DNA of 62,317 nt, the filler included, from Circinaria calcarea (Eukaryota), in assembly GCA_051942165.1 (NCBI GenBank). It is 9 parts of 9 records of this genome, joined end to end, with 100 filler letters (N's around TTAATTAATTAA, not from the genome) between each part and the next. Parts side by side here need not be neighbours in the genome. Positions count along the whole stretch, not along the records: positions 27,773 to 34,605 come from JAVECS010001478.1; 8 more parts are not named here. One strand, given 5' to 3'. Below the pieces are notes generated by a model. That model saw only the letters and a list, made by a program, of their open reading frames with translations. It did not search any database and was not told the DNA's origin. The translations under genes and the position numbers were made by a program. This document shows, one piece after another, positions 13,703-62,317 of this stretch (within the stretch, counting starts at the first letter, position 1; the number at the start of each line of letters is the position of its first letter).

Positions 13703-14629
13703 CTGTGATGTGATGAAAGGCGAGAGTGTCAGTCAAAGATGGTGGGTATGGTTTTTGTTGAGGGTATTTGGTGGGGTGGAGGAAGTATGGAAGGGGAATN
13801 NNNNNNNNNNNNNNNNNNNNNNNNNNNNNNNNNNNNNNNNNNNTTAATTAATTAANNNNNNNNNNNNNNNNNNNNNNNNNNNNNNNNNNNNNNNNNNNNC
13901 TACTACACGACCTATTGGTGGAACCACTCACTTTTGTATTGAAGGTTGTCTGACTAGCTACGCTCTGCTGGCAGAGATATACTTCTGCCACTATTACGCT
14001 AAGCCCTATTGGGTGTATGCTATGACTATAGTCATAACTATTGTCATAACAGTTAGCTATTAGGAATGCACCGTATTTTAACTCTTGGCTGTTATTCCAA
14101 GATTGTTGGCTGGTAATTCGCCCACCGCTTCCCTTCCTTTTCTTTTCCTTTCCTTTCCTTTCATTCTTCAATCTTTAGTACCTTCCCCTCCCTTCCCCTC
14201 TCCTCTCCCACCCCCTGCTCGTGGTTTGTTATACGTTGTCCCTCACTGATCTGGGCTGGGCTGGTTGGTTGGTTATAGTCATGGTGATGGTGATGAGTAA
14301 TAATGGGTCATGATTGATAATGAAGAAAATGTCCTGTCTAGCTTAAAGGCACGGATTAATGAGAAAAGGAAAGGGGGAAAGGACAGAGGACAGAGGACAG
14401 TGTACTCAGGGGGATGGAGGAGATGCAGTTGAGAGTTAGAGCTAGAGCCTAGACTTTCTAGTTTTCTGAAGTTCATGTATCGAGCATGTTCCGTCATACA
14501 CCCCTCTTCCCCCTCCCTTTTTAGGACAGCCCTTCCTTCATCCGTCATCTATAAACTTTCCAGCCATGAGTAGCAAACCAACTACGCCTGCACTCCACCC
14601 CTTCCCATTCCCATCCACCACTCCTCGTC

Positions 14630-15907
14630 TTACTCCCCCCACTTCTTCGCCACCATTCCCTCAGGCGGACTCGTCTCCACCCGTCCTTTCCCCACCTCCG
14701 CCCAATTCGTACTTAGCGCCGTCCCGTTGCTCTCCTGGTAACTTTTCATCATCGCGCGCTGCGTATCCGGGTCCGCGCCTGCAAAGAGCTTCTTGAAGAA
14801 CCCATTCACCGGGTCGCCTTCTTCAATGTATTCGTCTTCTTCTTCTTCTTCCTCCTCGGCGGGAACTGAGGGGTCAGAGGAAGAGGCGGCAGGTTTCTTG
14901 GGTTTCTTCTTCGGGGCGGTAAGATCGGTGGCTAATTTGTCCCAGTTTTTGGGACCGGTTTTGGAGGATGTGGGATAAATGGGTGCGGAGGTGAGGGGTT
15001 TGTTGGTACTGGTAGGACTGAGGATAGCGCGTTTGACGGCGTCATCGGGGCCGATGTCTGAAGGGGTATCTGAACTTGGGAGGGGTGACGCGCTTTCGAT
15101 TGATGACCACTTCTGGCCTGGGGTCGCCTTTTGGAGGATGAATTCGACTTTTGTGGACATGATTTTATGGCTTGATGATTTGGGGTCAATGGCGGCGAAG
15201 AGGGGATCGAGGGAGAAATCAAAGTCCGAGCCTGCGGGGAGGGGAAAAGAGATTGCCATTGATTGGGATTGGATGTCGATTGTTGATTTGTCTTTTGGTA
15301 CACCTTTGGCGAAGAGAGTAACAACGACAGTATCATTGGTCTGGTACCATTCATGGCGGATCTTGTTCGCCGGGGTTTGTACACCTTCGACCTTCGGCTC
15401 TTTGACCGCCGCTGGTTTCTCAACCTTCTCACCCTCCTCCTCGACCTTCTTTACCTCCTTGCCAAGTGCATCTGTGTTGACATCCGGCATCTCCTTGACA
15501 CTTGCAGCTCCCCTCTCATCACCTAATTCCAAAGCGTCCAGTTTCCCTTTGACCTTCATTTCCCAAATCGGAAGGCTCCCTTCCTTGGGGGTCAACTTCT
15601 TGGCCCAGCCGAAGCAAGCCCCAGCATCCGCCCATCTTTCCAGCCCGAACAAGGCAATTCCCCGCCGTAGTTGTGCCTGAGCTATCAACTCCCGTTTTCC
15701 ACGCTTGTGAGCGAGTACAACAGCAGTTTCAGCATCGGAGAGAGCGAGGGTGTGATCGGGAGGAGAGGTGCGTGTATAGGCAGTAGACCTTTTGATATAG
15801 TAATCTACACCTTGAGGATGAGAGGAGATGGCGCGTGTATAGTGGGAGATTGCAGAGGTAAAGTCCTTGGATGCAAGGGCGGCAGCGCCTTGAGCGGCAG
15901 CGTCCAT
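14630..15907 (-). CDS. SGT1: Hsp90 co-chaperone Sgt1 (TPR-CS-SGS)
   Basis: N-terminal TPR-like helices, CS domain (KIRHEWYQTNDTVVVTLFAKG), SGS domain (YPTSSKTGPKNWDKL...FFKKLFAGADPDTQRAMMKSYQESNGTALSTNW). Single ORF. Confidence 0.95.
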   Translation of the reverse strand: MDAAAQGAAALASKDFTSAISHYTRAISSHPQGVDYYIKRSTAYTRTSPPDHTLALSDAETAVVLAHKRGKRELIAQAQLRRGIALFGLERWADAGACFGWAKKLTPKEGSLPIWEMKVKGKLDALELGDERGAASVKEMPDVNTDALGKEVKKVEEEGEKVEKPAAVKEPKVEGVQTPANKIRHEWYQTNDTVVVTLFAKGVPKDKSTIDIQSQSMAISFPLPAGSDFDFSLDPLFAAIDPKSSSHKIMSTKVEFILQKATPGQKWSSIESASPLPSSDTPSDIGPDDAVKRAILSPTSTNKPLTSAPIYPTSSKTGPKNWDKLATDLTAPKKKPKKPAASSSDPSVPAEEEEEEEDEYIEEGDPVNGFFKKLFAGADPDTQRAMMKSYQESNGTALSTNWAEVGKGRVETSPPEGMVAKKWGE

Positions 15908-16729
15908 GTTGGGGGAAAATACAGAGCAGGAGAAATCTTTCGTGCTCAAATAATATGGTACTCCCTTGGTTCCATTTGAATGTCGTCTGTGAAAGAGTGT
16001 GAGAGGCGGTCAGTATCCGCATGTCTCAAAATGCCCAGGCAGCATCCGATCAATGGAAATCCGGGGAAGCTTCACGAGTTGATCGACGGCGCTAGCGATT
16101 AGCGCAGCTGCCAGCTACGAGCTAAAAACTCTCAACGTTAGTCGTTTTAGCTTAGTTAAGCTTTATTGGAGCCATGCAGTAATACCGGGGTTAATAATAT
16201 AATTCCTAAACATCATTGCTTCATGTACCTGGTCACGAGTAGCATCGGATGGGCATTAATCGTTAGCGCGGCATCAAAATCATTAAGATTCTAATTAAAC
16301 GATAATAATATTACAGAGTTCTTTTTAACTTCAGTGTTATTGTTTATTACTAGTATTATGAATTTACTTCCACTACTTCCTTTACCCACCCTTTTATCTT
16401 CATCACCACCTCCACGATGCTAGGCACCGAAATTTAGATGTTAAGAACAGAGGGTTATGCACTACGTGGATGTTATGGCGCCAGCACCATGATATGTACT
16501 AAACCCAGAATAGGCTAACCCCGGAACGGAGGAACCATGGGACCGGTTGCTCAGTGTGCTCATGGAGATGATATATAAGCAGGCTATTCCCGCTCTTTAG
16601 AATAGTATGCTTATAGAACCATAACGAGTTCAATATACTCCTTTTATATTGAGCCTAGGGCAACAGTTCAACTACACCCTATATAATCGTGCTACTACCA
16701 ATCGGGACCTATCATATTCCTCAATAGGC

Positions 16730-16905
16730 CCCAAGGATTGCAGCGCCCTTACAGTGGAACCAGGCGACGGAGCGGGTGAACTACCATAATCCCCGCAATA
16801 CACACATAGCATAGCTTTGCTATGCAATTCCATTAGTGAAGTCCATACACATAGACTGGTAGTTACCATAGCTAATACAGCCTATTCCACCTCCATTAAT
16901 TCACA
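16730..16905 (-). mobile_element. Degenerate solo LTR, same family as 29450-29620
   Basis: Reverse complement begins TGTGAATTAATGGAGGTGGAATAGGCTGTATTAGCTATGGTAACTACC..., matching 29450 onward over about 130 bp. The left boundary is approximate. Confidence 0.7.
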
Positions 16906-27672: not shown

Positions 27673-27795
27673 NNNNNNNNNNNNNNNNNNNNNNNNNNNN
27701 NNNNNNNNNNNNNNNNTTAATTAATTAANNNNNNNNNNNNNNNNNNNNNNNNNNNNNNNNNNNNNNNNNNNNAGAGAAGAGTAAAATAACGCCGA

Positions 27796-28960
27796 TTAGA
27801 AAAGGCCCAAGCAAATGTAGGCTAAGTCATTTCTCATCACCGCCCTGCTGACTTCCTTTCCGGATAGGGCCAGAACTGTCTTCACCCAAAGGAATCTGTC
27901 TGGAGATGTGATGATCTGCTCAAAATTATTTCTTAGAAATAGGTAGATTTCAACTCTCAGGAGGTGGACAAGGTATCGATGTCTCGCTGGATAGCTTATT
28001 TGCCTGTCCTGGAGGAAGTCTATGGCCTTATCGATTGGTAGCAAATACCAAGAGCTGACCCCTCAGAGGTACGAGGTCTATGCACCTAATCAGCATTGTA
28101 CATTGACTTTCTGGTAATTATACCGTAACATACCGTGGTGTGCAAATTTACCATAGCCTCATATTGTTTAGAGCCACCAGATAGATGATGTTGCATACTG
28201 GACCATCCATCGGGCATGTGACAAGGAGTAACCTGCGTCTCGAGGCACGAGAATAGGAAGTTGGCCGTGAAGACAGAGCGAGGCAGCAGCTGTGAGCAAT
28301 GAAGAGATGGCACGCATTGCAACGCCGTCTTCATACCCGCGCCCTGAATAGCCTCGTGTGGGTAAGGGTAGCACTACTTTTCAACTAAGGACAATTATGT
28401 TCCAAGGCTGGCTCGGCATATGCATGGGCTCTGACCACAAGATCATCAGGATCGAATGATTCTAAGCCTGCCATATAAGAACAAAAGATGAGCAGTCAAG
28501 TAATTTGAATTCGGATATAAAGGAAGGGAGGAAGATAGTTCTTGCTGAATCTTCGCATTAGAATCTATACTATTTGGATATGGCCGAATCCAGCCTTACC
28601 TCAGGCATTGTATGAGATGATCTCTTGTCGCAGGATCTCGGATCCGACGCTCGTACTCTCTTCCTTGGCTACTAAACAGATCAGCGCGATAGCGGCAGAA
28701 GATGTTCAGGGGCATACATACGCACTACACTGATGAAACTCTGAATGGGCTAGGTCAACCTCAAATGCTGGCGCGTGCTTCGGAAATCGAGATGGGATTG
28801 TTCGGCTTGACCGATGTCCTGTTAGCAATAGTAACAAGCGCGCAGGACTTAGCGCTTGAAGTAGGCACGTTCGATGTCTTATGCTTGATTTCTGTAGAAG
28901 AGGGATCATAGTTATGCGAAGCGAGAAAAATTCCTGATGTTTTTGGGTGGACGCTGATAC
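27796..28960 (-). pseudogene. Possible degenerate multi-exon gene relic, family not recognised
   Basis: Several canonical intron-like segments on the minus strand (GTATGT..CTGAT..TAG, GTAAGG..CTAAT..CAG, ..CTAACAG), but I could not assemble a stop-free frame. Confidence 0.3.
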
Positions 28961-29449
28961 CATATGCTTGGGATATTCTTGTGACCGCGGAAAAGATTAT
29001 GGGTGTGGCTCATGCGGACATGTGATTGACGGAGCAATCCACCCTGCTAAGTTTCAATCAAAAATCAACACACCATCCGAACTTTACGCAAGTCTGAATA
29101 ATGGGAAGCTTGTTATTTCCACAATAGGAATCAGAAATTTTCAGGCAATCGGAGTTCCTGCCCTACCGGTCAACAGACCTTAGTAGGCTAAATATCCGAT
29201 TCAGAGAGAATTCCGCGGAGAAACTTCTGGAGAATAGTGCTTTCTCTGCAGACACTTTCATTCTTAAGAATTTCTTCTTAGATCACGTTACTTCCTGAGA
29301 GCTTTCTCTGAAGCTCGGTAATATCTTGGGATCCTTTTCTTAAAAGTCGTAAAATCCTACGCGCTGTATGTCCCCAAGACCTTTTTCTTAGGTCCCGTGG
29401 TTTCTCAAGAGCGTGCTTCTACTCGTATGTTTCTCATGATATTTCTACC

Positions 29450-29620
29450 TGTGAAATAATGGAGGTGGAATAGGCTGTATTGGCTATGGTAACTACCACT
29501 CTATGTGTATGGACTTCACTATGGAACTACATAGCAGAATACCTCTGCTATGTGTGGGCTCGGTAGTTAGTTCAACCGCTCCGAATACTAGCTCCTAGTG
29601 TAGAACCCCTATTCTTGACA
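29450..29620 (+). mobile_element. Solo LTR (171 bp)
   Basis: TGTGAA...TTGACA termini, 5-bp flanks CTACC / GTACC (4/5 match, TSD-like), and a second copy at about 16730-16905 on another contig. Confidence 0.75.
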
Positions 29621-29712
29621 GTACCTGTATATCTCTGTCTGCCGGGTTGTCCTATATCGTGGCAATCGCTTGCTCAAACCGCCGCTAAACCCTTATGGTA
29701 GTCTTTGGGTTA

Positions 29713-29888
29713 CACGCGCTTGACAAAAAATATTGCAACCCGGATAGTAATTACTCGCTAAATTAACCCCTCTGGATTTGTGGGACCCCTCCCATGTTGG
29801 TGATTCTATACCCGAATCCTAGGCTGGAAGGGTCAGTAACTACGGCTGGGGGTAGCTCAAGGTTGCAATGTCTTTTGTCAAGCGCGTG
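29713..29888. mobile_element. MITE-like element with 28-bp terminal inverted repeats
   Basis: CACGCGCTTGACAAAAAATATTGCAACC (29713-29740) and GGTTGCAATGTCTTTTGTCAAGCGCGTG (29861-29888) are 26/28 complementary. TA flanks the left side only. Confidence 0.7.
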
Positions 29889-30105
29889 GGAGCCTTCTGG
29901 CTCCAGAGTCTCTTATGATTTTACAAAGCTCTCACGATCGGAACTTAAGCCAAAATCTACGCGGCACAGTTGAGCTGAGGGACATGCCAAAAATCTGCGT
30001 AGGCTACACTTAGCTTAAGCCAGATCAGCGCAAGCCACAACTCGCTTGAGTTAGATTCCAACCCTTATACGAGGGCCAAAATCGCCTCGACTTGTTGGCG
30101 GAAAC

Positions 30106-30960
30106 ATGTCAGATGAGATCAATCAGCAGCGATAATGCCAGACTTGTTCAGTCTGCTTTCTGATGAACGATGCGTTACGTGACCATCTTGATAGATACCG
30201 AGTTAGTACTTCACAGCCGTTTACTCCTGTCCTAATCCGTTTGTCCGGTCTCAGGAACGCCTCCTGTCTGCGAATCTTGAGCGATGTCGTGCACACTCAA
30301 AGCCAACTCACTGGCGAACGTGATATGCCTTACGATGACCATGCGGTCGGTGACGTCCGCAGCCCTGCATTTCTAAAGGGGAATGATAAACCCACCGACC
30401 AGCTTTGCCGGAGAGTGCGACCGAAGCATACCATTCGCCAAACAACAAAGGCTTGTACGGCACTTCGCAAAACGTAAATTACCATCGGTCGCTGGATACA
30501 CAAATTGCTAATAATGCCTTGAGCGCAGATGCGAGATGCAAAGAAGTATGTGTGTATTGTTTTGAGGTTTTCACGCTGGCAAGCCAATACCTTGCACACG
30601 CCGACACCCACAGAAACATGAATAAGACGAGGAATTCCTATACACGCCAGATATGCGATCAGCTAAGGAAAACTGTCGCCGGAAGGCTAAACAATTATCA
30701 ATTAAAAAGCGTTGAGACTAAGAAAAGAACAAGGGAACTAGCAGGGACACCAGGCGTTCGAAGGGTCAAGACGAAGCTGGATGGTGTTGATGACGCGACC
30801 ACAAACTCATCGCCATCACATTTCCCGGTTGCATTGGTGTTAACTCTCTCCCATCTGATGGAGCTTCTATACAGCCAGTGACAGCGTCGACGCCGCTCTT
30901 TGGCGTTGCTGTACCTGTGGCTTCCGATGGGAGTTTTGTGGGGATTCCACCGTAGTCGCT
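30106..30960 (+). pseudogene. Degenerate multi-C2H2 zinc-finger gene (3' end approximate)
   Basis: MSDEINQQR*CQTCSVCFLMNDALRDHLDRY (in-frame TAA), ECDRSIPFAKQQRLVRHFAK(H) and VCVYCFEVFTLASQYLAHADTH are three finger-like units in discontinuous frames. Confidence 0.55.
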
Positions 30961-31196
30961 GCACCAAAATTCCATAGAAGCATCAGCCAGAGTTCCGATC
31001 CAATATTCTGGCTCCTACGTATCCCTTAAACCATGTGGCAGAGCAATTTTGTGGAGAAATGGGTGACATTCATACAAGTATTATGAACCCATCTTCCGAT
31101 CTGGGAGTCGGTGAGTACAGTATAATACCCCAAGGGATACGAGAAGGCTACGTGTTCGGACATCCGCAGAATGTAGCAGAATAATATCATGGGCAG

Positions 31197-31970
31197 TCAT
31201 GACTTCCTAGTTGGTTCTTGTGCCTCAAATGCGAAGTTCACCCCGATCTTTGTGTTTGTGCTCTCCATTTCAGCGACCTTTTCTGCCAACTCCGGCGATC
31301 TTGGAATGATCATCTTAGCCCAAGTCTTAAGTCCGTCCTCTGTCGTAAATGCAAATGTGATTGTAAACCCGTCCATTATTTCGAAAGCGAGTCTGGCATC
31401 GAGAATGGCTCCGAAGATTTGTTAGAGGATGTGACTGAAATATAGATCGTAGCTTACAGGCCTGCTTGTTCAAACTTAGCTGTCTCCTTACAGCCGACAC
31501 GTTTGAAGGCAGCGAAAGGGACTTCCCACAAGCCATTTGCTGCGCTGACAGCTGGCAACGAGTGTAGGTGCGAACCGCCGTAAGACACAGCTCGCGATCC
31601 AACGCTCCACAACTGAACAATTAGAACGCGCAAACCAGCATTCGCACCACCCTTCCTGAAAGAGAAGATGTGGCCTGGATCGTTGTTGTATTTTAGACAA
31701 AGTCCAAGACCGGACCATTCGTACAAGGACTCAAAGTATGGATCGGATACGCTGCAACCATTAGTAACCGTAAACACATATTCCCCTTTACTAACCGTAT
31801 CGTCAAGGACTTTGAGCTTGCACAATTCCACAGGCCATATTCAGATGCGAAGGGAAAGACCTTCTGCTGCATCTCCAAGACCTGTTCTCCTAACCCCGAG
31901 TCATCCATACAGAAAGCCCATCATCTAGAATCGACTTCCTTGCATCAAGCGCGAACGTGGCTGACGCCAT
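31197..31970 (-). pseudogene. Frameshifted conserved-hypothetical gene divergent from the SPOK-like gene
   Basis: Reconstructable as MASATFALDARKSILDDG / MDDSGLGEQVLEMQQKVFPFASEYGL / ELCKLKVLDDT-intron-RIRSIL / ESLYEWSGLG...GSHLHSLPAVSAANGLWEVP..-intron-ILDARLAFEIMDGFTITFAF...WAKMIIP...IGVNFAFE..*. This needs three frameshifts (near 31914, 31831 and 31733). Confidence 0.55.
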
Positions 31971-32448
31971 GTACAGGATGTTGAATTTGTCGTTGATGAA
32001 TTAAAGCGATGACGGAAAATAAGGGCGAAATGGCTGCCTCTCAACAAGATCGACTATGTCCGCAGAGGCTAATGGCGAAGGTGAGTCTTCAGAGTCAGAG
32101 GCACTCTCGCGCCTTTGACAGAATATGCTAAGCGCGGGTGAGAGAAGGAGGTAAGGTAACAATGCACGGTGAGGGAAGAAATTGAATTTGATGAAGTAAA
32201 TTGCGGAGTGGATTGCTGGTGCATCAGCTGCCCCGCAGCATAGGTGGAATGAAGTCTATTAGCATATTATTCAAAGGGAGGACTTTGCAAAGTGGTGGGG
32301 CTTAAAGTGCCATGTGATTCGCCCCAGCAATCCGATACTTCAATGAATTCAGAATGCGCTAAGCGTAGTACGACAGATGTCCGCCCCAATTGATGATGGG
32401 TCTTCCAACCATCATCACATTTTCGCTCAACAACACTACTCCTTCATA

Positions 32449-34605
32449 ATGTCCTCTAGGCTGGAGTTGGATTTTGCGCGTCTTCAGCAGCTGCTAGAAC
32501 AGGAGCGGCGAAGTCGAAAAGAAGCCGACGAGAGGGCTGAACATGAGCGAAGGCGTGCAGAGGAAGCCGAGTCTCGAGCTCAGATCGAGGAACAGAAGAC
32601 AAGACCGACAACATTCGAACAATACATACGTGCCTGCCATACCCACCTCTCGAAACCGATTCGAATCCAGACGGACAAGAGTCTCAGTACACAGGGCTCC
32701 GTCACCAACCCCAAGAACAAGCCCTACCCGACCCTGTTAAAACCTTGGACAGACTTTCCGGTACTGCAGCAGCAGCGTTTCGAAAGAATTTACGAATACA
32801 TACCGCGAGACGTAGGACTTTTCAGCACCACCCAATACCTCATGGAGCTCGGGCAAGACCTTTGCGACAGGCCACTGGCGAGCGAGAAGGATTTGGAGAC
32901 ATATCAGCGCTTAGCAGTTGAGCGACCGACAACGCACATCATCTCCCACCTTCAGCAAATAGAAGAGGCTCGCCATGAACTCAACTTGAGCGGCGGCATT
33001 ATATTCGAGAATCACGCCAACACCCTTAGTGATAGCAACGAAGACGTCCAACAAAGTCTACAAGATCTCCGTATCTCAAGCAAAAGACAACCCTCAAGCT
33101 CGAACCTAAAACCGCGAAACGCCGATCAGATTTGTGTATATAAGGAGGCAGATGGCACACGGAGCTTGTGTATGATTGTGGAATACAAACCGGCTCACAA
33201 GCTGTCGGTCTTCAATCTGCGGGCCGGACTTTTGCGAGCTGATGAAGGGTCTATAAATATTCTAGAAGAAGTTATTCATCGGATCACGATACCAACTGAT
33301 CCAGGGGACAAGTTTGTGTACCACTCTGAATGGCTGACGGCAGCAGCTCTCACGCAAACGTATGCTTATATGATTGAAAACGGCCTCGAGTACAGCAAAT
33401 TGGCTACAGGAGAAGCTGATGTTTTCCTTCAAGTCACGGAAAATGAACCACATACACTTTATTATCACCTCGCAGAACCCAACATCGAAGCCGAAGCACA
33501 GAGCGATGTCGACATCTTACTGTGTCGCACTGCAGTAAGCCAGACCCTGACCTTCTGCTTAATGGCACTGGACTCGAAGCCTCGCAGCCAAAAATGGCGA
33601 AATCACGCGCTAGAGACTGCCGATAGGGCTGTGATCGATCAGGATGCAATCCTACGACAGATACCTGCTCAAGAGAAGACCTTGACTCCTCCGCCTTCGG
33701 TATTTCATGCGCGAATCCATCCTTTCAAGCGGTCGCCGATCAGGTTGAGGCCCAGAAAGTCACAAAAGGCAAGGAATAGCTGTCGCTTTACAGATAGAAT
33801 TGTGCACGAAGATCCACAGAGTCCGTCTGCCTCATCAGATGAGACCTCAGATACTGAAACGCCAAGCAAGCTAAGGGCTCGTACGCGCCAGTCTGATACC
33901 GGACAGATACATGCGGTCAAATCATCACAAGCGCCTGAAGAGAGCGATGTCCTCCACCGACAATACTGCACACAAGCCTGCTTGTTGGGGCTTGTACGAA
34001 AACATCCCTTGGACGATACTTGTCCAAATATCAACACACATCGTGCTCATGGAACCGGCAACCACCATGCTTTGGAGCCGAAATCCCTTGCCAAACTTAT
34101 GTCACGTCAACTCGCCGAGAACCCCGACAATCGATGTGAGCCACTTGGAAAGCAAGGCACCCGTGGTGCTCTGTTTAGATTGACTTTAGAATGGTATGGG
34201 TATACTTTCGTTGCTAAAGGCACTGTGACGGCATTCGAGGCCAAGTTAAAGCATGAAGGGTTAGTCTACCAACACCTAGACAAAGTCCAAGGGGAGCTTA
34301 TACCAGTCTACCTTGGGAATATCTCTCTTGTCCGTCCATACTTCCTTGACGTTGGGGTCAAGATAGTTCATATGTTATTACTGTCATGGGCAGGCGAGCA
34401 AGCACGTCAGGATTTGATGTTGGCCATGGGTCGGGATTTAGATGCGGAAACGAGCGGGGCAGTTACAAAGCTGTTGAATTGCGGAGTGGAGCATCGTGAT
34501 GTACGGCCACCGAATGTGCTATGGAATCCCGAGATCAGAAATGTGGTGTTGGTGGACTTTGAGCGTTCAGAGATCTCGAAGCAGGTGCAAGTTCTCCAAG
34601 AGATA
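32449..34605 (+). CDS. SPOK-family (spore-killer-like) nuclease-kinase protein, intronless, extreme 3' end cut by contig edge
   Basis: N-terminal coiled coil (EQERRSRKEADERAEHERRRAEEAE), then TTFEQYIRACH, a PD-(D/E)xK-type core (ADQICVY...IVEYKPAHKL), a C-x3-C-x13-C-x5-H-x7-H cluster (CTQACLLGLVRKHPLDDTCPNINTHRAHGTGNH) and a kinase domain (GKQGTRG, FVAKG, HRDVRPPNVLW, VDFERS). Confidence 0.85.
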
Positions 34606-38925: not shown

Positions 38926-40554
38926 TTACAGTTTCGCCTTCTCAGCCGGTGATACGAGAGGGTCATAAATCCCCAATCCCAATGTATCCATCGGTACAGA
39001 TGTCGAATGTAGACTCAGACCTCGAGTATTTACAAGAGTGGGGTTGAGCTGACTTACATTCGAGCATCCGATCAGCCGCATGTTCATCTCCATCTCGTCC
39101 TTCAGCAGTTGCATGGCACGATCCACACCGGGTAGACCATACGCACTCATAGCGTACAGGAAAGGTCGGCCAATACCCACACCTTTGGCCCCCAAGCAAA
39201 GTGCTTTGATGATATCGGTAGCTCGTCGAATCCCACCGTCGATATATATCTCAATTCGGTCCTCCCATCCGCGCTCGCGCAAGACGGGCATAACCTCTGC
39301 CAGTACTTCGATGCCAGATCTTGCGAAGTCAAGCTGGCGACCCCCATGGTTGGACAAGACCACACCATGGACTCCAACTTCGATGGCTCTGATGACATCC
39401 TCAACTCTTTGAACACCTTTAAGAAGTATGGGCATCTTGGTAATGCTCAAGAACCAAGGAATGTCCTTCCAGCTCAGCGATGGGTCAATGAAAGATGAAA
39501 TTGCACGCGCCGCGCCTTGCGATCGGTCGACGTTGTCACCGCCGGCTTTTTGGACGTTTGATCCAACGTCGGAGAATTTACTTCGCATGTCCTTTTCGCG
39601 GCGACCAAGTTGAGGAGCGTCAACGGTTATGAAAAGACCTTTGCAACCTCGCTTCTCGGCATGTTCTACAATGCGCTTGGTAATCGCGCGATCTTTGTTA
39701 ATGTAAAGCTGAAGCCATTGGGTTTGGTCTCCCGCCCTCGCGTCCACTATCTCATCGAACGAGCAACTGGCGAGTGTGGGAATCATCTGTATGACATTGT
39801 GCTTCTTTGCACCTCTAGTCAAGATCACTTCGCCTTCCGGGTTACCCAATTTACCAAGTGCGGTAGCAGTAACGTAGAATGGTATATCGACCTTAGTCCC
39901 GAGCATTTTCGTTGATAGGTCAATCTTTTCAACGTCCACTAGTATCCTCGGTCGAAACCAGATTTTGTGAAAGGCGGAGTGGTTCTCTCGCATTGTCTGT
40001 AAGCTGCATATTAGCTTGATCTACAGTGTATCACCAGGGTGATAGATTAACGTACTATCTCGTCATCTGCGCCACTTGAGTAATACGCCCATGCTGTCCT
40101 CTTCATCACACGTCTAGCCACGGCCTCAAAGTCCATTAGGTTGTAGCATTGTTCCAGTATCGGCATTCTCTTTATTCGTTCTTGCCTTTCCTCTTCATCC
40201 GGATCCTCCTCTTGCTGCTCCTTTTTGATAGTATCCATGTTGACCTCGCCAAGATGCTTAGACCTGTCAAGGAACTTGTCGAGGGTGTCAGGAGGATGTA
40301 TTGGGTCATATGTTTCTGTCGCGTCTTTCCCAGCGTATTTGAGAATGATGTTGGGTCCACCTTTGGAAAGAGTAAGCGGTCTTATTGACAAAGCAGTTTC
40401 GGCTCTACCTACCGGGATGTTCTGGCATGAAATCCGTGACATCGTAAGCTTTTCCGTGTATTATAACCCAGCAATCGTCCCTGCTGTTGTGTTTCGCCAC
40501 TTCCTCGCCATGGAGCTTTTGCTCCTTAGGACGCTTCTGAGGTTCATGGTTCAT
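38926..40554 (-). CDS. CYB2: Flavocytochrome b2 (L-lactate/alpha-hydroxy acid dehydrogenase) with C-terminal PTS1
   Basis: Cytochrome b5 domain ([26 protein letters not shown]), FMN domain ([39 protein letters not shown]). Ends in -AKL*. Confidence 0.92.
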
Positions 40555-41322
40555 CTTGGTACGATGTTTATCTAGCAGTGCCACCGAACGCCCTTGTATT
40601 GTAAATTCAAGCCCTGGGTCAATAGGTTCGAGGGGCGATAAGTATGTTGAAATTGATAGACTACCACCCTTTTCTAGGTATCAATAATGAAACTAAGATT
40701 ACTAGACAAAAAGGTATATACTAAACGACAATTTAAATAAACAAGGAAATATTTCCCATCAGACCGGACAAGAGGAAACAATGACAACGATAAGGGATAT
40801 GACTATCCACGGTACAGAAGCTAAAGCGGATGGTGAACCTTAGGGTGTGCGGAGAGAAAAATTGTGGGGTTGGGGGAATCGGGCGGGGGCAGCACATGCA
40901 GCACGCATGGAAAACCTGCAGGCCGGGTCTAGAATCGCCCGTTCGCAGCTCCAATGAATATAAACCGTGTTTTGAGTGTTGGTGTTCTTATCCGTCCTCA
41001 ATCGTCCTCAATCGACCACGTTGGAGTAGATTAAGTCAACGGTCTCTTCCACAAAAGGGCCGAGCTTGATCCCGGACAAAACAATGACGAAATTCAGAAA
41101 CGCGGCGAATTGCCTCACAAGGCGCGAAACTTACTGCCGGGCCATGCCTCATTAACAAGAAACAACGGAGCTACAAGAAGTCGTTACAGTCGTGTTTTGG
41201 CAAGGGCCGAGATCATCTGTGTATTTTCACCTATTAAAAGGGCGTATTGTGTCTTTGTCGTGATGCAGGTCTAAATCGCTTGCATATTCCCAACCTCCAG
41301 ACACCCTTGATCACTCCTGACA

Positions 41323-46329: not shown

Positions 46330-48469
46330 ATGGGAACAGCTACCAAACTTCCCATATCTGGGCTATGCCTCGTTATACTAGGCTTGCTGATTCTGCACGC
46401 TTCCCCTGCCGCTGCGTTCGGCGCGGGGAACATAGGTGAGGGATGCTGAGCCTCGATGGAATACCGACCATTGACAGAAATCAGCATCGATCTCCAAGAT
46501 CGAAGGGCGTAACTGGCGTCATGGTGATATTGAGGATATGCTCAAGACCGTCGCCTTCCTCAAGGGTCATAAATGGACGTCCATGATGGTGAAGAGGGTA
46601 TACTTTGGCAATTGGCTACGGGACTACAGCCAGGCGGTGGATGTCGGGACATTAAAAGGTGTACAATCGGGAACAATTAGGATCCTGGTCTGGGTGCTCT
46701 CCTTCCTGAGCTTTGGGTATGCGACGGGAGAATTCGAGGTTACGGAAGAACGCTTGGGGGTTTATAGGCCAGAGGAGCACATTGACAATCCACGCGATTA
46801 CGCAGATAATGCCGACGCAAGGCAGTATGATCCAAGGCTACGACCGCCGGTGCAGCCTATTGAGCTTGAAATCGACCCTGAGACGGGCATGAAAAACTAT
46901 ATTGCCAATGAGAAGCTGGGCATCGCAACAAGCACTGGATATGTAAAGCATAGCTTTGCGAGGAGTATCCATTTCGGGCGGGTCTACACCAACGGTTCTG
47001 GAGGAACAAAGGGCAGAGATGCGGACCTCTGTGAAGCGTTGAGGTGTCTGGGACAAGCCTTGCATTGCATGGAGGACTTTGGGGCTCATTCAAACTATAC
47101 GGAACTTGCACTCCGGGAGCTGGGTTACAAGAGCGTATTTCCTCACACCGGGACTGCAACCGAGATCAATCTTCGCGGTCATCGGGTTTTCCCGCTTGTA
47201 ACGGGGACCTTTGGCGCGGTGGATTTTTTACATTCAGGTGAGTCGTTGGATATTCGGAATATGTTCAATATACAAGCGGATGTCCCTAATTGAGATTGCA
47301 GTACTGGGAGAGGCGACCGATCACTTTGCGCAGACAGAAATTGACGAATTAGATATTGCTCTGGGGGATTCCCAGGCGCAAACGAAGCGAACAGAGGACA
47401 GCGGTGCAAGATCATTTGGAGCACCAGGTGAGCAAGCATCTTACTTCACCGGGCTACTTTCCCAAGTACCAGGGGCCGGTCTACTGTGCAAACAAGCGGA
47501 ACAGCTTCAGGCACAGTCACTAGCACAGCAGCAAGCCGTGTCGTCAGGCAAAGACATGAATGACCCATATTATGGAAACACCCGCTCGTCCAAACCAGGG
47601 CCTGGCCTTCAGGCGTCACAGGGATTCCAAGCACCGCCAGGATCCATGGGCGGTCCTCCCGGCCCGGGAATACCAGGCATGAGTCCTACTTTCGACCCGG
47701 TGGAGACTGCCAAAAAGATTTATCCAATTCTCGAATTTCGTGACAAGGTGGTAAGGATAATCTCTGCCACAATTGAGAAAATCCCTGGTCTAGAGGCCTT
47801 GGTCGAAAAGATTACAGAGACCCTAACTCTGTTTATACTTTCCCTCCTAGCGCCATATATCCGGCCGATTATTAATGCAGTATCAAAGCAGCTCAAAGCA
47901 GGTAGCTCTTCTGTTGTTGATGCTAGTGGCAAGCATCAATACGAGCCTTGGACGGATCCCCATTGCACCGACCCGACACATTCTCTTCTTTCAAAAGATC
48001 ATTTTTCAAACGTGCTCAATGAGCCTGCTGGTCAGATCGCAGCAGCTATTCTTCAATACGTTGCACCTCGCGTCATATACGCCTGGCAGCACCCAGGTGT
48101 TCCGATTGACGAGGTCATGAACGACGTCACTCGTGCCTTTCACCATCCCGCCATTCGAGATTCACGCTGCGAAATTCATCGCAACATGTTTAGTGTCGTG
48201 GAGCGTTGGGCCCATGCTCAACCCAATCGCGGGGCCGATTTGAACAACATCCTTGGTTCTGAAGGTGTTCGTAAGGGCAAGAACCATACGGGGGGCACCG
48301 ATCAGGAAGCTCAAGGTCATGGAAGCCATAATCATGGAAGTCTCCCACCCATGGGAAATATCTTTGGTTCGGGTAGCCACAGCAAAGTCAGCGGTGCACC
48401 GTGGGATAAGTTGATGAAGCTAAGTCAGTCGACCGGTCTTACTTCGACCGGTCGTACTCGAGATACCAT
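46330..48469 (+). CDS. Het-C domain protein (3' truncated)
   Basis: Signal peptide, then AFGAGNI-ASISKIEGRNWRHGDIED, KRVYFGNWLRDYSQAVDVG, YRPEEHIDNP, LHCMEDFGAHSNY, LVTGTFG, DPTHSLLSKDHF. Confidence 0.93.
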
Positions 48470-55493: not shown

Positions 55494-57958
55494 TTCGAGA
55501 GTTCCCCGCCGATTTCTGCTCCGATCTAGAACTGTCAAGTTCAAGATCCTCAAGGAATTTTGCTGCCCTTCTTGCTGCTTTCACGTCAATAATTGGATCT
55601 TTCGCCTTGATTATCTGGTCATCTTCAACTGAGCCTCCTTGTGGAGCTGCAACAATTTTGGGCTCAGATACCGATGGCCGCCACTTTATGTAACCCTTTG
55701 AGTCACGGATTAGATCTTGGTCGTTGGAGGTGTCATCTTGTATCCCTTGGAGTTGGGCTGCGCTCTTTGGTATGGATGCAAAAGATCCGGAGGTTTCCCC
55801 GCGTACAGATCTCCTCCCTTCAAAAGCGGGTATGAATATCATATCCTCAGCTGTTTTACTTGGCCTGGAAATGTGCCTTATTGGCAAAGTAGATGCTCCT
55901 TTCTCTGCCTCAGAAGGGTAAGTAACTTGGGACTCCGATATTGGAGGCTTCCATAATGTAAACAAAGGTGATGCCGGTCGTTCCGAAGTCCAAGCTTTTT
56001 TCCGTGACTCTACGTGGTCTTGTCCGTCTTCAGGTTGGTCTTCCTTTATCGCGGGCCATAAGCCTGGAGTTTCAAGCTGCGATAGAGTTGATTCCTCTAT
56101 TTTCGCCACTGGGGAACTCCATACAGTCCATGCACCTGATAGTCCTCTCGTACCTGCACCTTCGGGGGATTTTTTCTCAGCTCCGCTTTCGTTATGGTTA
56201 GGCTCCTTGTCCAAGACTAGGTCATTCTTTTTCACTGCCTCTTCCTCTGTGAATTCGATCGGAGCCGTTGATGTATCCCTAGATGAGCTGTGCGTTTCAT
56301 CCATTGGGGGTTTCGATCTTGTCCAGGCAGTGGGAGATGGCATTGGTTGAACGGAGTCTATAGGGATTGTGAACTTAACTTGACGACCATCTTGAGCTAG
56401 TGCCGGTACCAAAGTCTTCATAGGATTGTAGGCTTTGGGATCTTTGCTTCCCTCCGCTCTGTGGTAGGTTCGAGAATTATCGTTTGGCACCGTCGTCTCA
56501 GGGATTTTCACCTCATCACTCGCCAGGTTCTTTGATATATGCTTACTTGTTCCCCGGAAACCTACGAACCTTCCCTTGCTCGCCGCTCGAAGTCGTTCCA
56601 AGCGTTGGTTTTCAATCTCTTCCAACCGTGGATCTCTTGTCTTTACCTGAGCGCCTTGTCCCTTGGGCACTGGTTCTTCGATATCAGAGTCTTGATTACC
56701 AGAGCCCTGACGTTTTCTCAAGTGCTTCCAATGTTGAGTGGGGTTGTCATCCAAAGCGCTTGGGGTATCTATTTCCACAGGTCGGACGAGTTGTGAATTA
56801 TCAAATGTCGGGAAAAGACGCATCGTCAAGGAGCGCCGATTACTACAGCGACAGCAGGTTGATGTTTTGTCATCATTCCTCTGTCCGCATTTCGCGCAAT
56901 CCCATTCGTACCGCTCGAGCGGCCTTGGCCTTTTTCCAGCGGTCATTTCCTGGATGGGTGACGACCGCATGGAGGAGATGTGCTCATCTAAAATCTTGTC
57001 TCGGGGCCGAGTCTGGGCTGTTCGAGTCGATTCCGATGCGTACCTACTACTCGGCTGGGCATTATCTTGACTTGCCTCAACACCCAAGGTACTGGCTGCA
57101 CCTTCCATCGGCTGATGGCCGAGTCGCGGGATCCCATTTGCATCTGTCCAGGGGAGGAGAACAGCAATGCTATCTGAATCATCTTGACTCGACCAAGGTA
57201 GAAGGGCTCCCCTATTGCCTGAGGCATTCGTATCAACCGCATGCGGCTGTGGACCAGATTTGAGAACAACTTCTTTTTCGGCCGGTGAACCTACTTCAGA
57301 TACTCCAGATTTACTCCTTGCCTGCCGCCAACGAATATCTTGCCGAGGACTAACACCAGCAAAGCAGAAGTTTCCACACGTGCGACATCTCGAACCCAAT
57401 TTGTTCCTTGTGGTACCGCAGCTGGTGCAGGTAGTTTCACTCTGCCTATTGCCTCTGGCCTTAGTAACGTTGGCGTCACGCGATTGTGCTTGGACTTCTT
57501 GTGGAGTTGCTGCTGGCCTCAGTGCAGAATCTCGAGCCAAGCGGACCTTCCTTGTAGGAGGTTGAGGAGCAGTTTGAGCTATGCGTAAATTCCGGCAAAG
57601 GCCTTCCCTCTCTCGTTCCTCCTCGGGAGTTAGTTGTACCTCAACCTCGTGTCTAGCCCATCCTCCTCTCGAATTTATCGCTGGAATATCCGTCCAACTA
57701 TTATTGGAATGATTGAACGACTCTTGTCCCTCCTCATGCTGGGCAGCAGCGGCGGTAGCTGGTCTATAGGTAGAGGGAGAACATTGAAAGGGCCGCCGCT
57801 GCAACGTCCTTAGATGGTATGGAGAGGTAGTTCGTTGGATTCGAAGGGTGCAGAAGATGCAAATATCTTGGGCGTTAGGGTGCTAGATATAAGGGTCAGT
57901 AAGACGCATGGCGACGGCCGTAGCACTTTACCTTTACCTTCAAGAAGTGCTGTCGCAT
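55494..57958 (-). CDS. Predicted mitochondrially targeted protein with RanBP2-type zinc finger, copy A (3' part beyond contig)
   Basis: MRQHFLK / HPNAQDICIFCTLRIQR..RRPFQ presequence-like start; CTSC..CRTC and WDCAKCGQRNDDKTSTCCRC. Open to the contig edge. Confidence 0.7.
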
Positions 57959-58581
57959 GACGAGCTCAATAAAGATCTCAAAATAATCTCAACGGGGCGC
58001 TACAGAAATTCTTGAGGCACTGGACATCAACTTACAGGGATTAGATCCGGGGGTCAAATGCTGCCGAAGTCCGATGCTCGATTAGCCTCATGAACCTTGA
58101 CGTTCTTTTTCCGGCGTATACTCTCTACTGGTCTTCCGAAGTAAAAGGATCTTTCACGTAACGGTCCTATGCTCCCCGACCAGGCCCTCTTATAAGAGGG
58201 CTAGATGCGGGAAAAAGCCTATTAATAATGTTTGCGTGCTATTTTGCTCCCCTTTGTCGTTATCGTCATCGTCTTGACTGCTGCACTATCTGACTGAAAT
58301 TCTGCGAGCATAAGCTTTGATAACAGCACCTTGTCTCGAAACTCAGCATCTGCGATAGCCTACCCTCCCTGCACGGAGAAGAACTGGTCTGCTAGTAGTG
58401 CCTTCTTGCAGTCGCGGCCCTTTGTTTTTTTACCTATTACGCACATTCTCGGGGAAGTAGTGTTTTTATTCGGTCAGGCACAAGTTGGAGGGGGAGCGCG
58501 TTTCTTGCGGCGTTGGAGCTTTTAATGCTTTGAGGCCGCTTAATCTGGGCGAGAAGGAAGGGATATTCATTTCAATATATA

Positions 58582-58884
58582 TGTCACGCTCTAATGGCTG
58601 TCCGACTGGTAATGCCTGGCATCCGCTCAAGTTCGAGGCAGTCCTGGGACGAAACGGCAATATGGATGATGATGGCGAACGAGGACAGCTCTTATCCACA
58701 GAACATTTCGATCAATACTGTCTAGCCGTCTTCTACCTTTACTCTTTCTGTATAAGCTCAGTCCTACCTCCCCACGACGCCATCCACGGATGGATTCACT
58801 CCTGCTAGGCCGTAACCCTTCGCCAGTCTTTCTCTCTCAAAGCACATCCCATCAACTGCATTCACTAACCCCCTCCATGTCACA
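58582..58884 (+). mobile_element. LTR-like sequence at the centre of the inverted duplication (partial inverted copy about 58927-59015)
   Basis: Begins TGTCACG, has an internal TATAAG and ends TGTCACA. Its first ~90 bp recur inverted, ending ...TGTGACA at 59015. No TSD seen. Confidence 0.45.
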
Positions 58885-59657
58885 TACTGAATATCAACTC
58901 GACGCCTCCCTCCCAGAATATCCCAGCCATCCAAACTGCCGTTTCGCCCCAGGACTGCCTCCAGCTCGTGCGGAGGTCAGGTATTACGAGTCTGGACAGC
59001 CATCAGAGTGTGACATATATATTTAAATGAGTATCCCTTCCCCCTCGCCCAGGTTAAGCGGCCTCAAAGCATTAAAGGCTCCAACGACGCAAGAAAAGCG
59101 CTCCCCCTCCAACTTGTGCCTGACCGAATAAAAACACTACTTCCCCGAGAATGTGCGTAATAGGTAAAAAAGAAAGGGCCGTAACTGTAAAGAAGGCACT
59201 GCCAGCAGACCAGTTCTTCTCCGTGCAGGGAGAGTAGGCTATCGCAGATGCCGAGTTTCGAGACAAGGTGCTGTTATCAAAGCTTATGCTCGCAGAAGTT
59301 CAGTCAGATATTGCAGGAGTTAAGACGATGACGATAACGACGAAGGGGAGCAACAATAGCCCGCAAACATTATGAATAAGCTTTTCCCGGCATCTAGCCA
59401 TCTTATAAGAAGGCCTGGTCGGGGAGCATAGAACCGCTACGTGAAAGATCCTTTTACTTCGGAAGACCAGCAGAAAGTATACGCCGGAAAAAGAACGTCA
59501 AGGTCCATAAGGCTGAGTTAGCTCGTAAGGGTAATCGAGGATCGGACTTCGGCAGAATTTGACCCCCGGATCTAATCCCTGTAAGTTGATGTCCAGTGCC
59601 TCAAGAATTTCTGTAGCGCCCCGTTGAGTACATTTTGAAGTCTTTATTAAGCTCGTC

Positions 59658-62317
59658 ATGCGACAGCACTTCTTGAAGGTAAGGGTAAAATGCTACGGCC
59701 GTCGCCATGCGTCTTACTGACCCTTATGTCTAGCACCCTAATGCCCAAGATATTTGCATCTTCTGCACCCTTCGAATCCAACGAACTACCTCTCCATACC
59801 ATCTAAGGACGTCGCAGCGGCGGCCCTTTCAATCTTCTCCCTCTACCTATAGACCAGCTACCGCCGCTGCTGCCCAGCATGAGGAGGGACAAGAGTCGTT
59901 CAATCATTCCAATAATAGTTGGACGGATATTCCAGCGATAAATTCGAGAGGAGGATGGGCTAGACACGAGGTTGCGGTACAACTGACTCCCGACGAGGAA
60001 CGAGAGAGGGAAGGCCTTTGCCGGAATTTACGCATAGCTCAAACTGCTCCTCGGCCTCCTCCCAGCAAGGTCCGCTTGGCTCGAGATTCTGCACTGAGGC
60101 CAGCAGCAACTCCACAAGAAGTCCAAGCACAATCGCGTGACGCCAACGTTACTAAGGCCAGAGGCAACAGGTGGGGTGAAACTACCTGCACCAGTTGCGG
60201 TACCACAAGGAACAGATTGGGTTCGAAATGTCGTACGTGTGGAAACTTCTGCTTTGCTGGTGTTAGTCCTCGGCAAGATATTCGTTGGCGGCAGGCAAGG
60301 GGTAAATCTGGGGTATCTGAAGTAGGTTCACCGGCCGAAAAAGAAGTTGTTCTCAAATCAGAAGGAGGAGGGAGCTCTCAAAAGGATATGGAGAACTCTT
60401 TCGATACGCTTCACAATGTCTCCATACCAGCTAGAGACTCAACTGCCGGTGCTCCAATGTTTAACCTTACGGGCTCAAGTTTACACTGTGTGGAGACATC
60501 GAATCAAAATGTCTCAACCTCGCGGCAATCCTTCGGTCGAAAACCTGGTCCACAGCCTTTCACAGCGCATGCGGTTGATACGAATGCCTCGGGCAATAGG
60601 GGAGCCCTTCTACCTTGGTCGAGTCAAGATGATTCAGATAGCATTGCTGTTCTCCTCCCCCGGACAGATGCAAATGAGATCCCACGACTCGGCCATCAGC
60701 CGATGGAAGATGCAGCCAGTACCTTGGGTGTTGAGGCAAGCCAAGATAATGCCCGGCCGAGTAGTAGATACGTATCGGAATCGACTCCAACATCCCAGAC
60801 TCGGCCCCGAGACGATATTTTAGATGAGCACATCTCATCCATGCGGTCGTCACCCATCCACGTAAAGACTGCTGGAAAAAGGCCAAGGCCGCTCGAGCGG
60901 TACGAATGGGATTGCGCGAAATGCGGACAGAGGAATGATGACAAAACATCAACCTGCCGTCGCTGTAGTAATCGGCGCTCCTTGACGATGCGTCTTCTCC
61001 CAACATTTGATAATCCACAACTCGTCCGACCTGTGGAAATAGATACCCCAAGCGCTTTTGATGACAAACCCAGTCAACATTGGAAGCACTTGAGAAAACG
61101 TCAGGGCTCTGGTAATCAAGACCCTGATATTAGAGAACCGGTGCCCAAGGGACAAGGCGCTCAGGTAAAGACAAGAGATCCAGGGTTGGAAGAGATCGAA
61201 AACCAACGCTTGGAACGACTTCGAGCGGCGAGCAAGGGAAGATTCGTAGGTTTCCGGGGAACAAGTAAGCATATATCAAAGAACCTGGCGAGTAATGAGG
61301 TGAAAATCCCTGAGACAACGGTGCCAAACGATAATTCTCGAACCTACCACAGAGCGGAGGGAAGCAAAGATCCCAAAGCCTACAATCCTATAGAGACTTT
61401 GGTACCTGCACTAGCTCAAGATGGTCGTCAAGTTAAGTCCACAACCCCTATAGACTCCGTTCAACCAACGCCATCTCCCACTGCCTGGACAAGATCGAAA
61501 CCTCCAATGGATGAAGCGCCTAGCTCATCTAGGGATACGTCTACGGCTCCGATCGAATCTACAGAGGGAGAGGCAGTGAAAAAGAATGACCTAGCCTTGG
61601 ATAAGGGGCCTAACTATAATAAAAGCGGAGCTGAGAAAAAATCCCCCGAAGGTGCAGGTACGAGAGGACTGTCAGGTGCATGGGCTGTATGGAGTTCCCC
61701 AGTGGCGAAAATAGAGGAATCAACTCCATCGCAACTTGAAACTCCAGGCTTGGGGCCCGCGATGAAGGAAAACCAACCCGAAGACGGACAAAACCACGTA
61801 GAATCACTGAAAAAAGCTTGGACTCCGGAACAACCGGTATTACCTCTGTTTACATTATGGAAACCTCCAATATCGGAGTTCCAAGTTACTCACCCTTCTG
61901 AGGCAGAGAAAGGAGCATCTACTTTGCCAATAAGGCACATTTCCAGGCTAAGTAAAACAGCTGAGGATAGGATATTCGTACCTGCTTTTGAAGGGAGGAG
62001 ACCTGTACGCAAGGAAACCTCCGGATCTTTTGCATCCATGCCAAAGAGCGCAGTCCAACTCCAAGGGATACAAGATGACACCTCCAACGACCAAGATCTA
62101 ATCCGTGACTCAAAGGGTTACATAAAGTGGCGGCCATCGGTATCTGAGCCCGAAACTGTTGCAGCTCCACAAGGAAGCTCAGTTGAAGATGACCAGATAA
62201 TCAAGGCGAAAGATCCAATTATTGACGTGAAAGCAGCAAGAAGGGCAGCAAAATTCCTTGAGGATCTTGAACTTGACAGTTCTAGATCGGAGCAGAAATC
62301 GGCGGGGAACTCTCGAA
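59658..62317 (+). CDS. Predicted mitochondrially targeted protein with RanBP2-type zinc finger, copy B (runs off window; absent from ORF track)
   Basis: Exon 59658-59678, intron 59679-59733, then a frame I read as stop-free from 59734 to 62317. It carries in-frame extra segments (60361-60546, plus 9 nt) relative to copy A. Confidence 0.72.

What the first reader, a model, noticed from the sequence alone, without database searches (positions are those of the whole stretch)
32449..34605. Uninterrupted SPOK-type toxin-antidote (meiotic-driver-like) gene
Seen: an intronless frame of at least 719 codons with domain order coiled coil, PD-(D/E)xK-like motif (D at about 33124, EYK at 33181-33189), an exact C-x3-C-x13-C-x5-H-x7-H cluster (from 33967) and a kinase with HRD (34492) and DFE (34555). 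Established: Podospora SPOK proteins have this architecture, with the nuclease needed for killing and the kinase for resistance, and SPOK homologs recur as Starship cargo. Inference: all key residues appear intact, so it may be an active single-gene killer/resistance element in this fungus.
Basis: partly seen in the sequence, partly recalled or inferred. Interest (0 to 1): 0.75.

Follow-up and report, generated by a model that had tools for sequence, protein, structure and literature searches.

The report
Borrowed spore-killer gene in lichen fungus
This is an intact-looking member of a known family of selfish fungal poison-and-antidote genes, and its one unusual feature is that a lichen fungus seems to have picked it up from a distantly related group of fungi.

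Summary
In detail: an intronless frame at 32449-34605 with coiled coil, PD-(D/E)xK nuclease, Cys/His cluster and kinase, all motifs where stated. It stops at a contig end, not a stop codon. Two overlapping contigs finish it at 755 and 756 aa. It is a Spok-family gene (SPOK2_N domain, restriction-nuclease and kinase folds), but the family is large (2,809 hits among 50%-identity cluster representatives), and the gene is only 31% identical to the nearest Fusarium oxysporum Spok-like protein I retrieved. No Podospora sequence was retrieved. The host is a Lecanoromycete lichen fungus, yet the gene nests in a Leotiomycete clade (many named members about 80% identical; dS about 0.4 to unnamed relatives). 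It sits at the end of a 4.5-kb block shared with those relatives and is linked to host repeats and a host kinesin fragment, so cross-class horizontal transfer is likely (about 85%). Its neighbours have decayed while the gene kept its frame (pN/pS 0.19). It most likely works as a one-gene toxin-antidote; activity is untested. Present-day meiotic drive is unlikely to be visible: both assembly paths carry it. A conserved C-terminal basic motif is altered. Known kind, modest interest.

The parts
32449..34605 (+). Spok-family ORF, first 719 codons; cut by the contig end, completed on G000:C3793 (756 aa) or G000:C629 (755 aa)
   Evidence: relatives start at the same Met-Ser-Ser position
32455..32601 (+). 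N-terminal long helix / coiled coil, aa 3-51, length variable among relatives
   Evidence: AlphaFold2 helix H3-51; alignment
32599..33678 (+). N-terminal domain plus PD-(D/E)xK nuclease (D226, E245, K247, QxxxY 303-307): predicted killing module
   Evidence: model pLDDT 90; best fold match restriction endonuclease BpuSI Z 10.1, rmsd 3.9, 153 aligned; Vibrio HsdR 3h1t Z 6.7
33727..33948 (+). disordered linker, aa 427-500
   Evidence: pLDDT under 50; highest dN/dS, 0.38-0.68
33967..34065 (+). C-x3-C-x13-C-x5-H-x7-H cluster, aa 507-539
   Evidence: motif as defined in PMC6660238
34090..34590 (+). kinase-like domain (K590, E603, HRD 682-684, N689, DFE 703-705): predicted resistance module
   Evidence: fold matches to kinases, best Z 12.5, Rio2 Z 11.2; Foldseek top hit Rio2, E 5e-6
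34465..34605 (+). 141-bp end overlap with two contigs (C3793, C629), which stay 98.2% alike over 734 bp and then diverge
30080..32260 (.). passenger DNA shared with relatives (two decayed gene-like frames, one on each strand); left edge of the shared block near 30080
   Evidence: 80-81% nt to locus L018; run X1 contigs cover 30080-34605 and nothing before 30053; stops and frameshifts
29713..29888 (.). MITE-like element with 28-bp inverted ends; multicopy host repeat
   Evidence: copies at 82-90% on many G000 contigs
29450..29621 (.). second multicopy host repeat, also on the SGT1 contig
   Evidence: 84% over 141 bp to window 16768-16905; many copies
27773..27913 (+). 141-bp start overlap with two contigs (C3958, C1755), both carrying a broken P-type cation ATPase gene upstream

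Best explanation
A Spok-family single-gene toxin-antidote, acquired by a Lecanoromycete lichen fungus from a Leotiomycete (Helotiales-type) donor on a block of accessory DNA. Shown here: the domain anatomy, intact catalytic residues, nesting in a Leotiomycete clade, physical linkage to host DNA, and a frame kept under purifying selection while the neighbouring DNA decayed. Inferred from tested homologs: the nuclease damages chromosomal DNA; the Cys cluster and kinase of the same protein neutralise it in any nucleus that carries the gene; nuclei or spores sharing cytoplasm but lacking the gene die. That makes the locus hard to lose (addiction) and lets it win in meiosis or after hyphal fusion against a naive partner. 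Speculative: the full-length model has pTM 0.82 across a disordered linker, which would fit the kinase module docking on the nuclease and inhibiting it in cis. Odds by step: family 0.97, horizontal origin 0.85, working toxin and antidote 0.55.
For: Family: PF27653/SPOK2_N on the protein's own record and on 115 of 120 listed hits; D-to-K spacing of 21 equals SPOK3 D219-K240. Host: SGT1 has 21 organism-named hits among its best 120, all lichen fungi. The kinesin on C629 has 11 named of 120, all Lecanoromycetes; the 100% hit is labelled Circinaria calcarea. Donor side: 36 of 120 Spok hits name an organism; 34 are Leotiomycetes, 2 Dothideomycetes, 0 Lecanoromycetes (class checked for four genera or species, the rest from my own knowledge). 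The gene lies in a 28-row clade, SH-aLRT 98, with 25 named Leotiomycetes; grouping with the genome's C39 paralog is rejected, p 1.6e-65. DNA is 86-88% identical to three relatives, dS 0.39-0.50, dN/dS 0.16-0.19. Linkage: C629 holds the Spok tail and a kinesin fragment 90% identical to the full-length gene on C132. Selection: against L018, 0 indels in 2,007 aligned coding bases versus 24 (16 frame-breaking) in 1,837 upstream bases at similar identity; lineage pN/pS 0.19.
Against: No activity or expression data. The clade is untested and about 31% identical to F. oxysporum Spok-like proteins. 4 of 6 motif-intact Fusarium homologs did nothing in yeast. A C-terminal S-P-N-x-K-x-K motif present in 45 of 55 close relatives is altered in both tails. 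The protein departs from 21 of 412 columns conserved in the close clade, joint 45th-46th of 56. 84 of 120 hits name no organism, so other lichen members cannot be excluded, and the exact sister is unresolved. The purifying selection measured includes time spent in the donor lineage. C1478 may be a merged consensus of two sequences. The AU group was chosen after seeing a first tree.
Confidence: 0.5

Rival explanations
1. Attenuated or antidote-only copy: the gene was transferred and kept, but killing is weak or lost, for example through poor nuclear import; it now mainly gives resistance or is starting to drift.
For: Altered C-terminal basic motif in both tails versus 45 of 55 relatives; above-median departures from conserved columns; the two tails differ by 4 amino-acid changes and one 3-bp indel in 37 codons; killing-less resistant alleles occur in Podospora.
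Against: Nuclease region dN/dS 0.13-0.19; all catalytic residues intact; 10 of 55 relatives also fail the strict motif; another basic stretch lies in the linker (aa 432-441). That the motif is a nuclear signal is my inference.
Confidence: 0.2
2. Currently segregating meiotic driver in the lichen fungus.
For: Intact anatomy; accessory, repeat-rich surroundings; Spoks drive in Podospora.
Against: Both assembly paths carry the gene behind the same broken ATPase gene, and the assembly holds second versions of single-copy genes on 3 of 7 other window contigs searched. The simplest reading is two genotypes that both carry the locus, leaving nothing to drive against. Many homologs act in vegetative growth.
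Confidence: 0.15
3. Domesticated nuclease-kinase with a host role (non-self cell death or DNA defence), not a selfish element.
For: Very wide family (2,809 hits); three divergent members in this genome with long open frames; the Fusarium paper itself raises a non-selfish native role.
Against: Star-like tree that ignores host taxonomy; relatives sit among accessory genes with no shared synteny.
Confidence: 0.1
4. Assembly or binning artefact: DNA of a lichen-dwelling Helotiales fungus binned or fused with the lichen fungus.
For: Fragmented assembly of 5,512 contigs with mixed genotypes; Helotiales-like sequence.
Against: C1478 itself carries two host repeat families, one shared with the SGT1 contig; C629 carries the Spok tail and a host-type kinesin fragment in one contig; two separate paths join on each side.
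Confidence: 0.05

Closest known systems
Podospora SPOK1-4 (Vogan et al. 2019, PMC6660238; Urquhart and Gardiner, PMC9972908)
   Same: Domain order, intronless frame, D-x21-K nuclease spacing, QxxxY, exact Cys/His cluster, catalytic Asp 177 residues after the first Cys (174 in SPOK3); the Vibrio HsdR that was SPOK3's best HHpred hit is rank 5 in my fold search.
   Different: No Podospora sequence was retrieved, so direct identity is unmeasured. E-x-K here, D238-x-K240 in SPOK3. Different class of host; no shown killing, drive or Enterprise element.
Fusarium FuSpoks (PMC12693581; 10.64898/2026.10.04.756499)
   Same: Full-length homology to F. oxysporum P0255, 31% over 701 aa, E 1e-90; accessory, repeat-rich setting that breaks short-read assemblies.
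   Different: A distant branch in my tree; P0255 is unannotated, and whether it is one of the tested FuSpoks was not checked.
Uncharacterised Leotiomycete Spok-like clade (Phialocephala, Hymenoscyphus, Cadophora, Hyaloscypha, Rhynchosporium and others)
   Same: Many members about 80% identical over the full length; P0390 82% over 753 columns; shared upstream block with unnamed L018.
   Different: This copy is in a Lecanoromycete; altered C-terminal basic motif; passengers decayed.
Tangerine Starship cargo transfer in Xanthoria (PMC13486527)
   Same: Cross-class gene transfer into a lichen fungus, on accessory DNA.
   Different: There the donors are Chaetothyriales or Sordariomycetes and the genes an NLR and a methyltransferase; 'Spok' and 'Leotiomycetes' occur 0 times in its main text. 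Here no captain or element ends were found.

Membership tests
Spok family (broad) | SPOK2_N domain (PF27653) | tested here: met
   Precomputed on the protein's own record P0002; atlas top clusters 95-99% SPOK2_N, score 0.97-0.99. The session's older Pfam copy gave 0 families for this protein.
Spok family (broad) | N-terminal coiled coil of variable length | tested here: met
   Helix 3-51; length variation.
Spok family (broad) | PD-(D/E)xK nuclease with QxxxY | tested here: met
   D226, E245, K247, Q303-Y307; BpuSI Z 10.1, rmsd 3.9, 153 aligned. Foldseek alone found nothing at E 0.001.
Spok family (broad) | C-x3-C-x13-C-x5-H-x7-H cluster | tested here: met
   Exact match at 507-539.
Spok family (broad) | Kinase-like domain with catalytic Asp | tested here: met
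   K590, E603, D684, N689, D703; kinase fold Z up to 12.5.
Spok family (broad) | Complete intronless ORF | tested here: met
   719 codons on C1478 plus in-frame tails on two overlapping contigs; C1478 may be a merged consensus.
Podospora/Fusarium clade II Spoks (tested killers) | Phylogenetic placement with Podospora SPOKs | tested here: inconclusive
   No Podospora sequence retrieved; the gene is far from F. oxysporum P0255 (31%), which points to a different clade.
Active toxin-antidote / meiotic driver | Killing of non-carriers, self-resistance, segregation distortion | not testable with these tools
   Needs expression or crosses; only indirect selection evidence.
Starship cargo | DUF3435 captain at the element's 5' end, with direct or inverted repeats at the ends | tested here: inconclusive
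   21 DUF3435 matches on 13 G000 contigs, none on C1478, C629, C3793, C1755 or C3958; none among 58 ORFs scanned from 16 of 41 related loci. Contigs are too short to exclude an element.

The most novel reading that the evidence does not exclude
A working Spok toxin-antidote crossed from a Helotiales fungus into a lichen-forming Lecanoromycete, swept the lineage or was copied between its genotypes, and now polices nuclei in mixed-genotype thalli or asci. It would be the first selfish killer gene shown in a lichen and the first activity from a large, mobile Leotiomycete Spok clade.
Probability: 0.25. Interest if true: 0.7.

Novelty: new member of a known kind. Interest (0 to 1): 0.4.

Why it matters
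The gene itself is one of thousands of Spok homologs. What adds value is the setting: a selfish-gene family crossing between fungal classes into a lichen symbiont, with synonymous sites still unsaturated, and staying intact while its passengers decay. Five literature searches and passage checks in three lichen papers turned up no report of a Spok in a lichen or of this Leotiomycete clade; the library lacks most subscription journals. It gives a ready test of whether Spoks outside the Podospora/Fusarium group are toxin-antidote genes, which is open.

Tried and rejected
Pfam (2025 copy) gave 0 families for the protein. PDB sequence search gave only weak kinase hits, best E 0.045. Rfam: 0 matches in the window, so the 170-bp repeats are not 5S rRNA by Rfam. 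Viral contigs: 12 pattern hits, none confirmed. Sequencing runs: one DNA run at share 0.05 and no RNA holder listed, so the two paths could not be phased, depth could not separate two copies from two genotypes, and expression is unknown. Podospora SPOKs were not among the 30 proteins looked up by cluster, so the direct alignment was not done. The eLife supplements were listed but not read; bioRxiv supplements were closed. Het-C, anoctamin and other window genes were rejected as neighbours because they lie on other contigs. Vertical inheritance was rejected: dS of 0.4-0.5 is far too low for a split between classes (my knowledge), and grouping with the C39 paralog is rejected. RIP was not seen on C1478 (indices 0.74 and 1.28, like other contigs; substitution spectrum like relatives). 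No long terminal repeats bound the block. Earlier scan findings: none.

Full report
Observation. The window is nine contigs joined by N spacers; the gene lies on G000:C1478 (window 27773-34605) and runs off its end. The last 141 bases overlap two contigs, C3793 and C629, which are 98.2% alike over 734 bp and then diverge. Each finishes the frame, at 756 and 755 aa, with a stop near where some relatives stop.

Family. The public record of this protein and 115 of the 120 listed homologs carry PF27653, named SPOK2_N by the atlas. In SPOK3 the tested residues are D219, D238, K240, C493, C497, C511 and D667 (PMC6660238, passages; 10.64898/2026.10.04.756499, passages); the spacings here match (21 from D to K; 177 against 174 from the first Cys to the catalytic Asp). 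An AlphaFold2 model (pLDDT 86, pTM 0.82) gives a kinase fold at the C-terminus (best Z 12.5; Rio2 Z 11.2). Residues 51-410 folded alone match restriction endonucleases: BpuSI Z 10.1, DrdV 7.8 and the Vibrio HsdR fragment 6.7; rank 2 is a mitoribosomal protein at Z 8.7. Foldseek found nothing significant for that part. The family is common: 2,809 hits at E 0.001 and 839 at 1e-30 among 50% representatives. I retrieved no Podospora sequence; the nearest F. oxysporum homolog is 31% identical over 701 aa.

Host and origin. SGT1 from the window has 21 organism-named hits among its best 120, all lichen fungi, the best 66-68% identical. The kinesin on C629 has 11 named of 120, all Lecanoromycetes; the identical protein is labelled Circinaria calcarea, Pertusariales. 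The Spok gene shows the opposite: 36 of 120 hits name an organism, 34 Leotiomycetes, 2 Dothideomycetes, no Lecanoromycete (classes checked for four names, the rest my own knowledge); 84 name none. In a 51-row tree it falls in a 28-row clade (SH-aLRT 98) with 25 named Leotiomycetes, sister unresolved; that tree kept named rows, the genome's paralogs and nine unnamed rows from the 120-row tree, which agrees. Holding it with the C39 paralog is rejected (p 1.6e-65; group chosen). At DNA level it is 86-88% identical to L017, L018 and L023, dS 0.39-0.50. Those loci are unnamed, but they sit inside the same clade. Unsaturated dS between classes is not compatible with descent (my knowledge), so transfer from the Leotiomycete side is the best reading.

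Is it really in the lichen genome? C1478 carries two multicopy repeats at 29450-29621 and 29713-29888, one shared with the SGT1 contig. C629 carries the Spok tail and, in the same contig, a kinesin fragment 90% identical to the full-length gene on C132. A stray contig is unlikely.

The transferred block. L018, 1 of 41 related loci, shares 2.2 kb upstream at about 80% from window 30080. Contigs of an independent soil run cover 30080-34605 and nothing before 30053, with loose ends at 30080. Against L018 the upstream part has 24 indels, 16 frame-breaking, in 1,837 aligned bases, and the window's frames there contain stops; the Spok frame from codon 51 has none in 2,007 bases at similar identity. 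Seven upstream indels are shared by L018 and run X1 against the window, most simply changes on this lineage, though not strictly polarised. Lineage pN/pS for the gene is 0.19, within the 0.15-0.22 of four relatives. No captain is on the linked contigs or among 58 ORFs scanned from 16 of the 41 loci, whose neighbours are DUF7025-AAA, APH-type kinase and ankyrin genes. Starship carriage is plausible but not shown.

Two paths. C1478 also forks at its start, into C3958 and C1755, both with the same broken P-type ATPase gene at 95% identity. Three of seven other window contigs searched have a second version at 93-95%; one contig was not searched and one only in part. The simplest reading is two genotypes that both carry the locus; a duplication is possible. 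The 141-bp overlaps suggest an assembler that merges near-identical bubbles (my knowledge), so C1478 may be a consensus.

Mechanism. In Podospora the nuclease lysine is needed for killing and the Cys cluster and kinase for resistance; SPOK1 kills by DNA damage and the resistance mechanism is unknown (PMC9972908, abstract and Discussion). I infer the same here. Against it: 4 of 6 Fusarium homologs had no effect in yeast despite conserved sites (PMC12693581, outline and Results parts 1-2), though one was later active in its host; the C-terminal S-P-N-x-K-x-K motif of 45 of 55 close relatives is altered in both tails; and the protein departs from 21 of 412 conserved columns, more than most. I put working toxin-antidote at 0.55 and present drive at 0.15.

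Novelty. Patchy, taxonomy-breaking Spok distributions are known (PMC6660238 section 19), as are Spoks on Starships (PMC9156397, passages; PMC11162782, passages) and transfers into lichen fungi (PMC13486527, passages). Searches showed no report of a lichen Spok; 'Spok' in PMC13535494 was 'Spokane', and it is absent from the Peltigera preprint's main text. Supplements of these papers were not read and may list such homologs. Verdict: a real, ordinary-architecture Spok-family gene, a new member of a known kind, with a likely cross-class transfer as its one notable feature. Interest 0.4.

Noticed in passing
window 55494-62317 (G000:C1482): The whole contig is a large inverted repeat: arms of about 3.2 kb at 93-94% identity, and both ends overlap the same 141 bases of C2169. 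It may be a palindromic element or a haplotype fold-back artefact.
   Followed up: no
whole assembly; window 1-3332, 14256-15911, 39839-41060: Second versions of single-copy regions at 93-95% identity (C1193, C2778 with an open 425-aa SGT1 frame, C3683): the assembly probably mixes two genotypes.
   Followed up: partly
G000:C39:5048-7423 (L008) and G000:C20:1474-3483 (L010): Two more Spok-family genes, 45% and 36% identical, with long open frames and far from this gene in the tree. A kinase-like fragment lies beside the C39 copy, ankyrin genes beside the C20 copy.
   Followed up: partly
G000:C629:10-1383, C3695:1-1275, C132:10144-11361: Three KAR3-type kinesin sequences; C132 looks full-length, C629 and C3695 look like 3' fragments 88-92% alike.
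   Followed up: partly
G000:C1755 and C3958: Broken P-type cation ATPase gene upstream of the Spok contig in two versions; C3958 lacks 4.35 kb. C1755 holds an 826-bp insert 88% like DNA near the C20 paralog.
   Followed up: partly
G000:C363:948-2339: Best Starship-captain candidate in the genome (DUF3435, 617-aa open frame), one of 21 matches on 13 contigs.
   Followed up: no
window 46538-48469: het-C heterokaryon incompatibility gene on another contig, not linked to the finding.
   Followed up: no
P0074: A Phaeosphaeriaceae (Dothideomycete) protein also nests in the Leotiomycete Spok clade, 74% identical: a second apparent cross-class transfer.
   Followed up: partly
L006:7897-8882 (C629) and L007:1092-1496 (C3793): Beyond the point where the two 3' paths diverge, one holds a relic 67% like a BCS1-type ATPase gene near relative L033's Spok, the other a stop-ridden kinase relic like the one downstream of L036's Spok.
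   Followed up: partly
P0002: The public protein record for this gene stops at residue 684, at HRD, so it lacks the rest of the kinase.
   Followed up: yes
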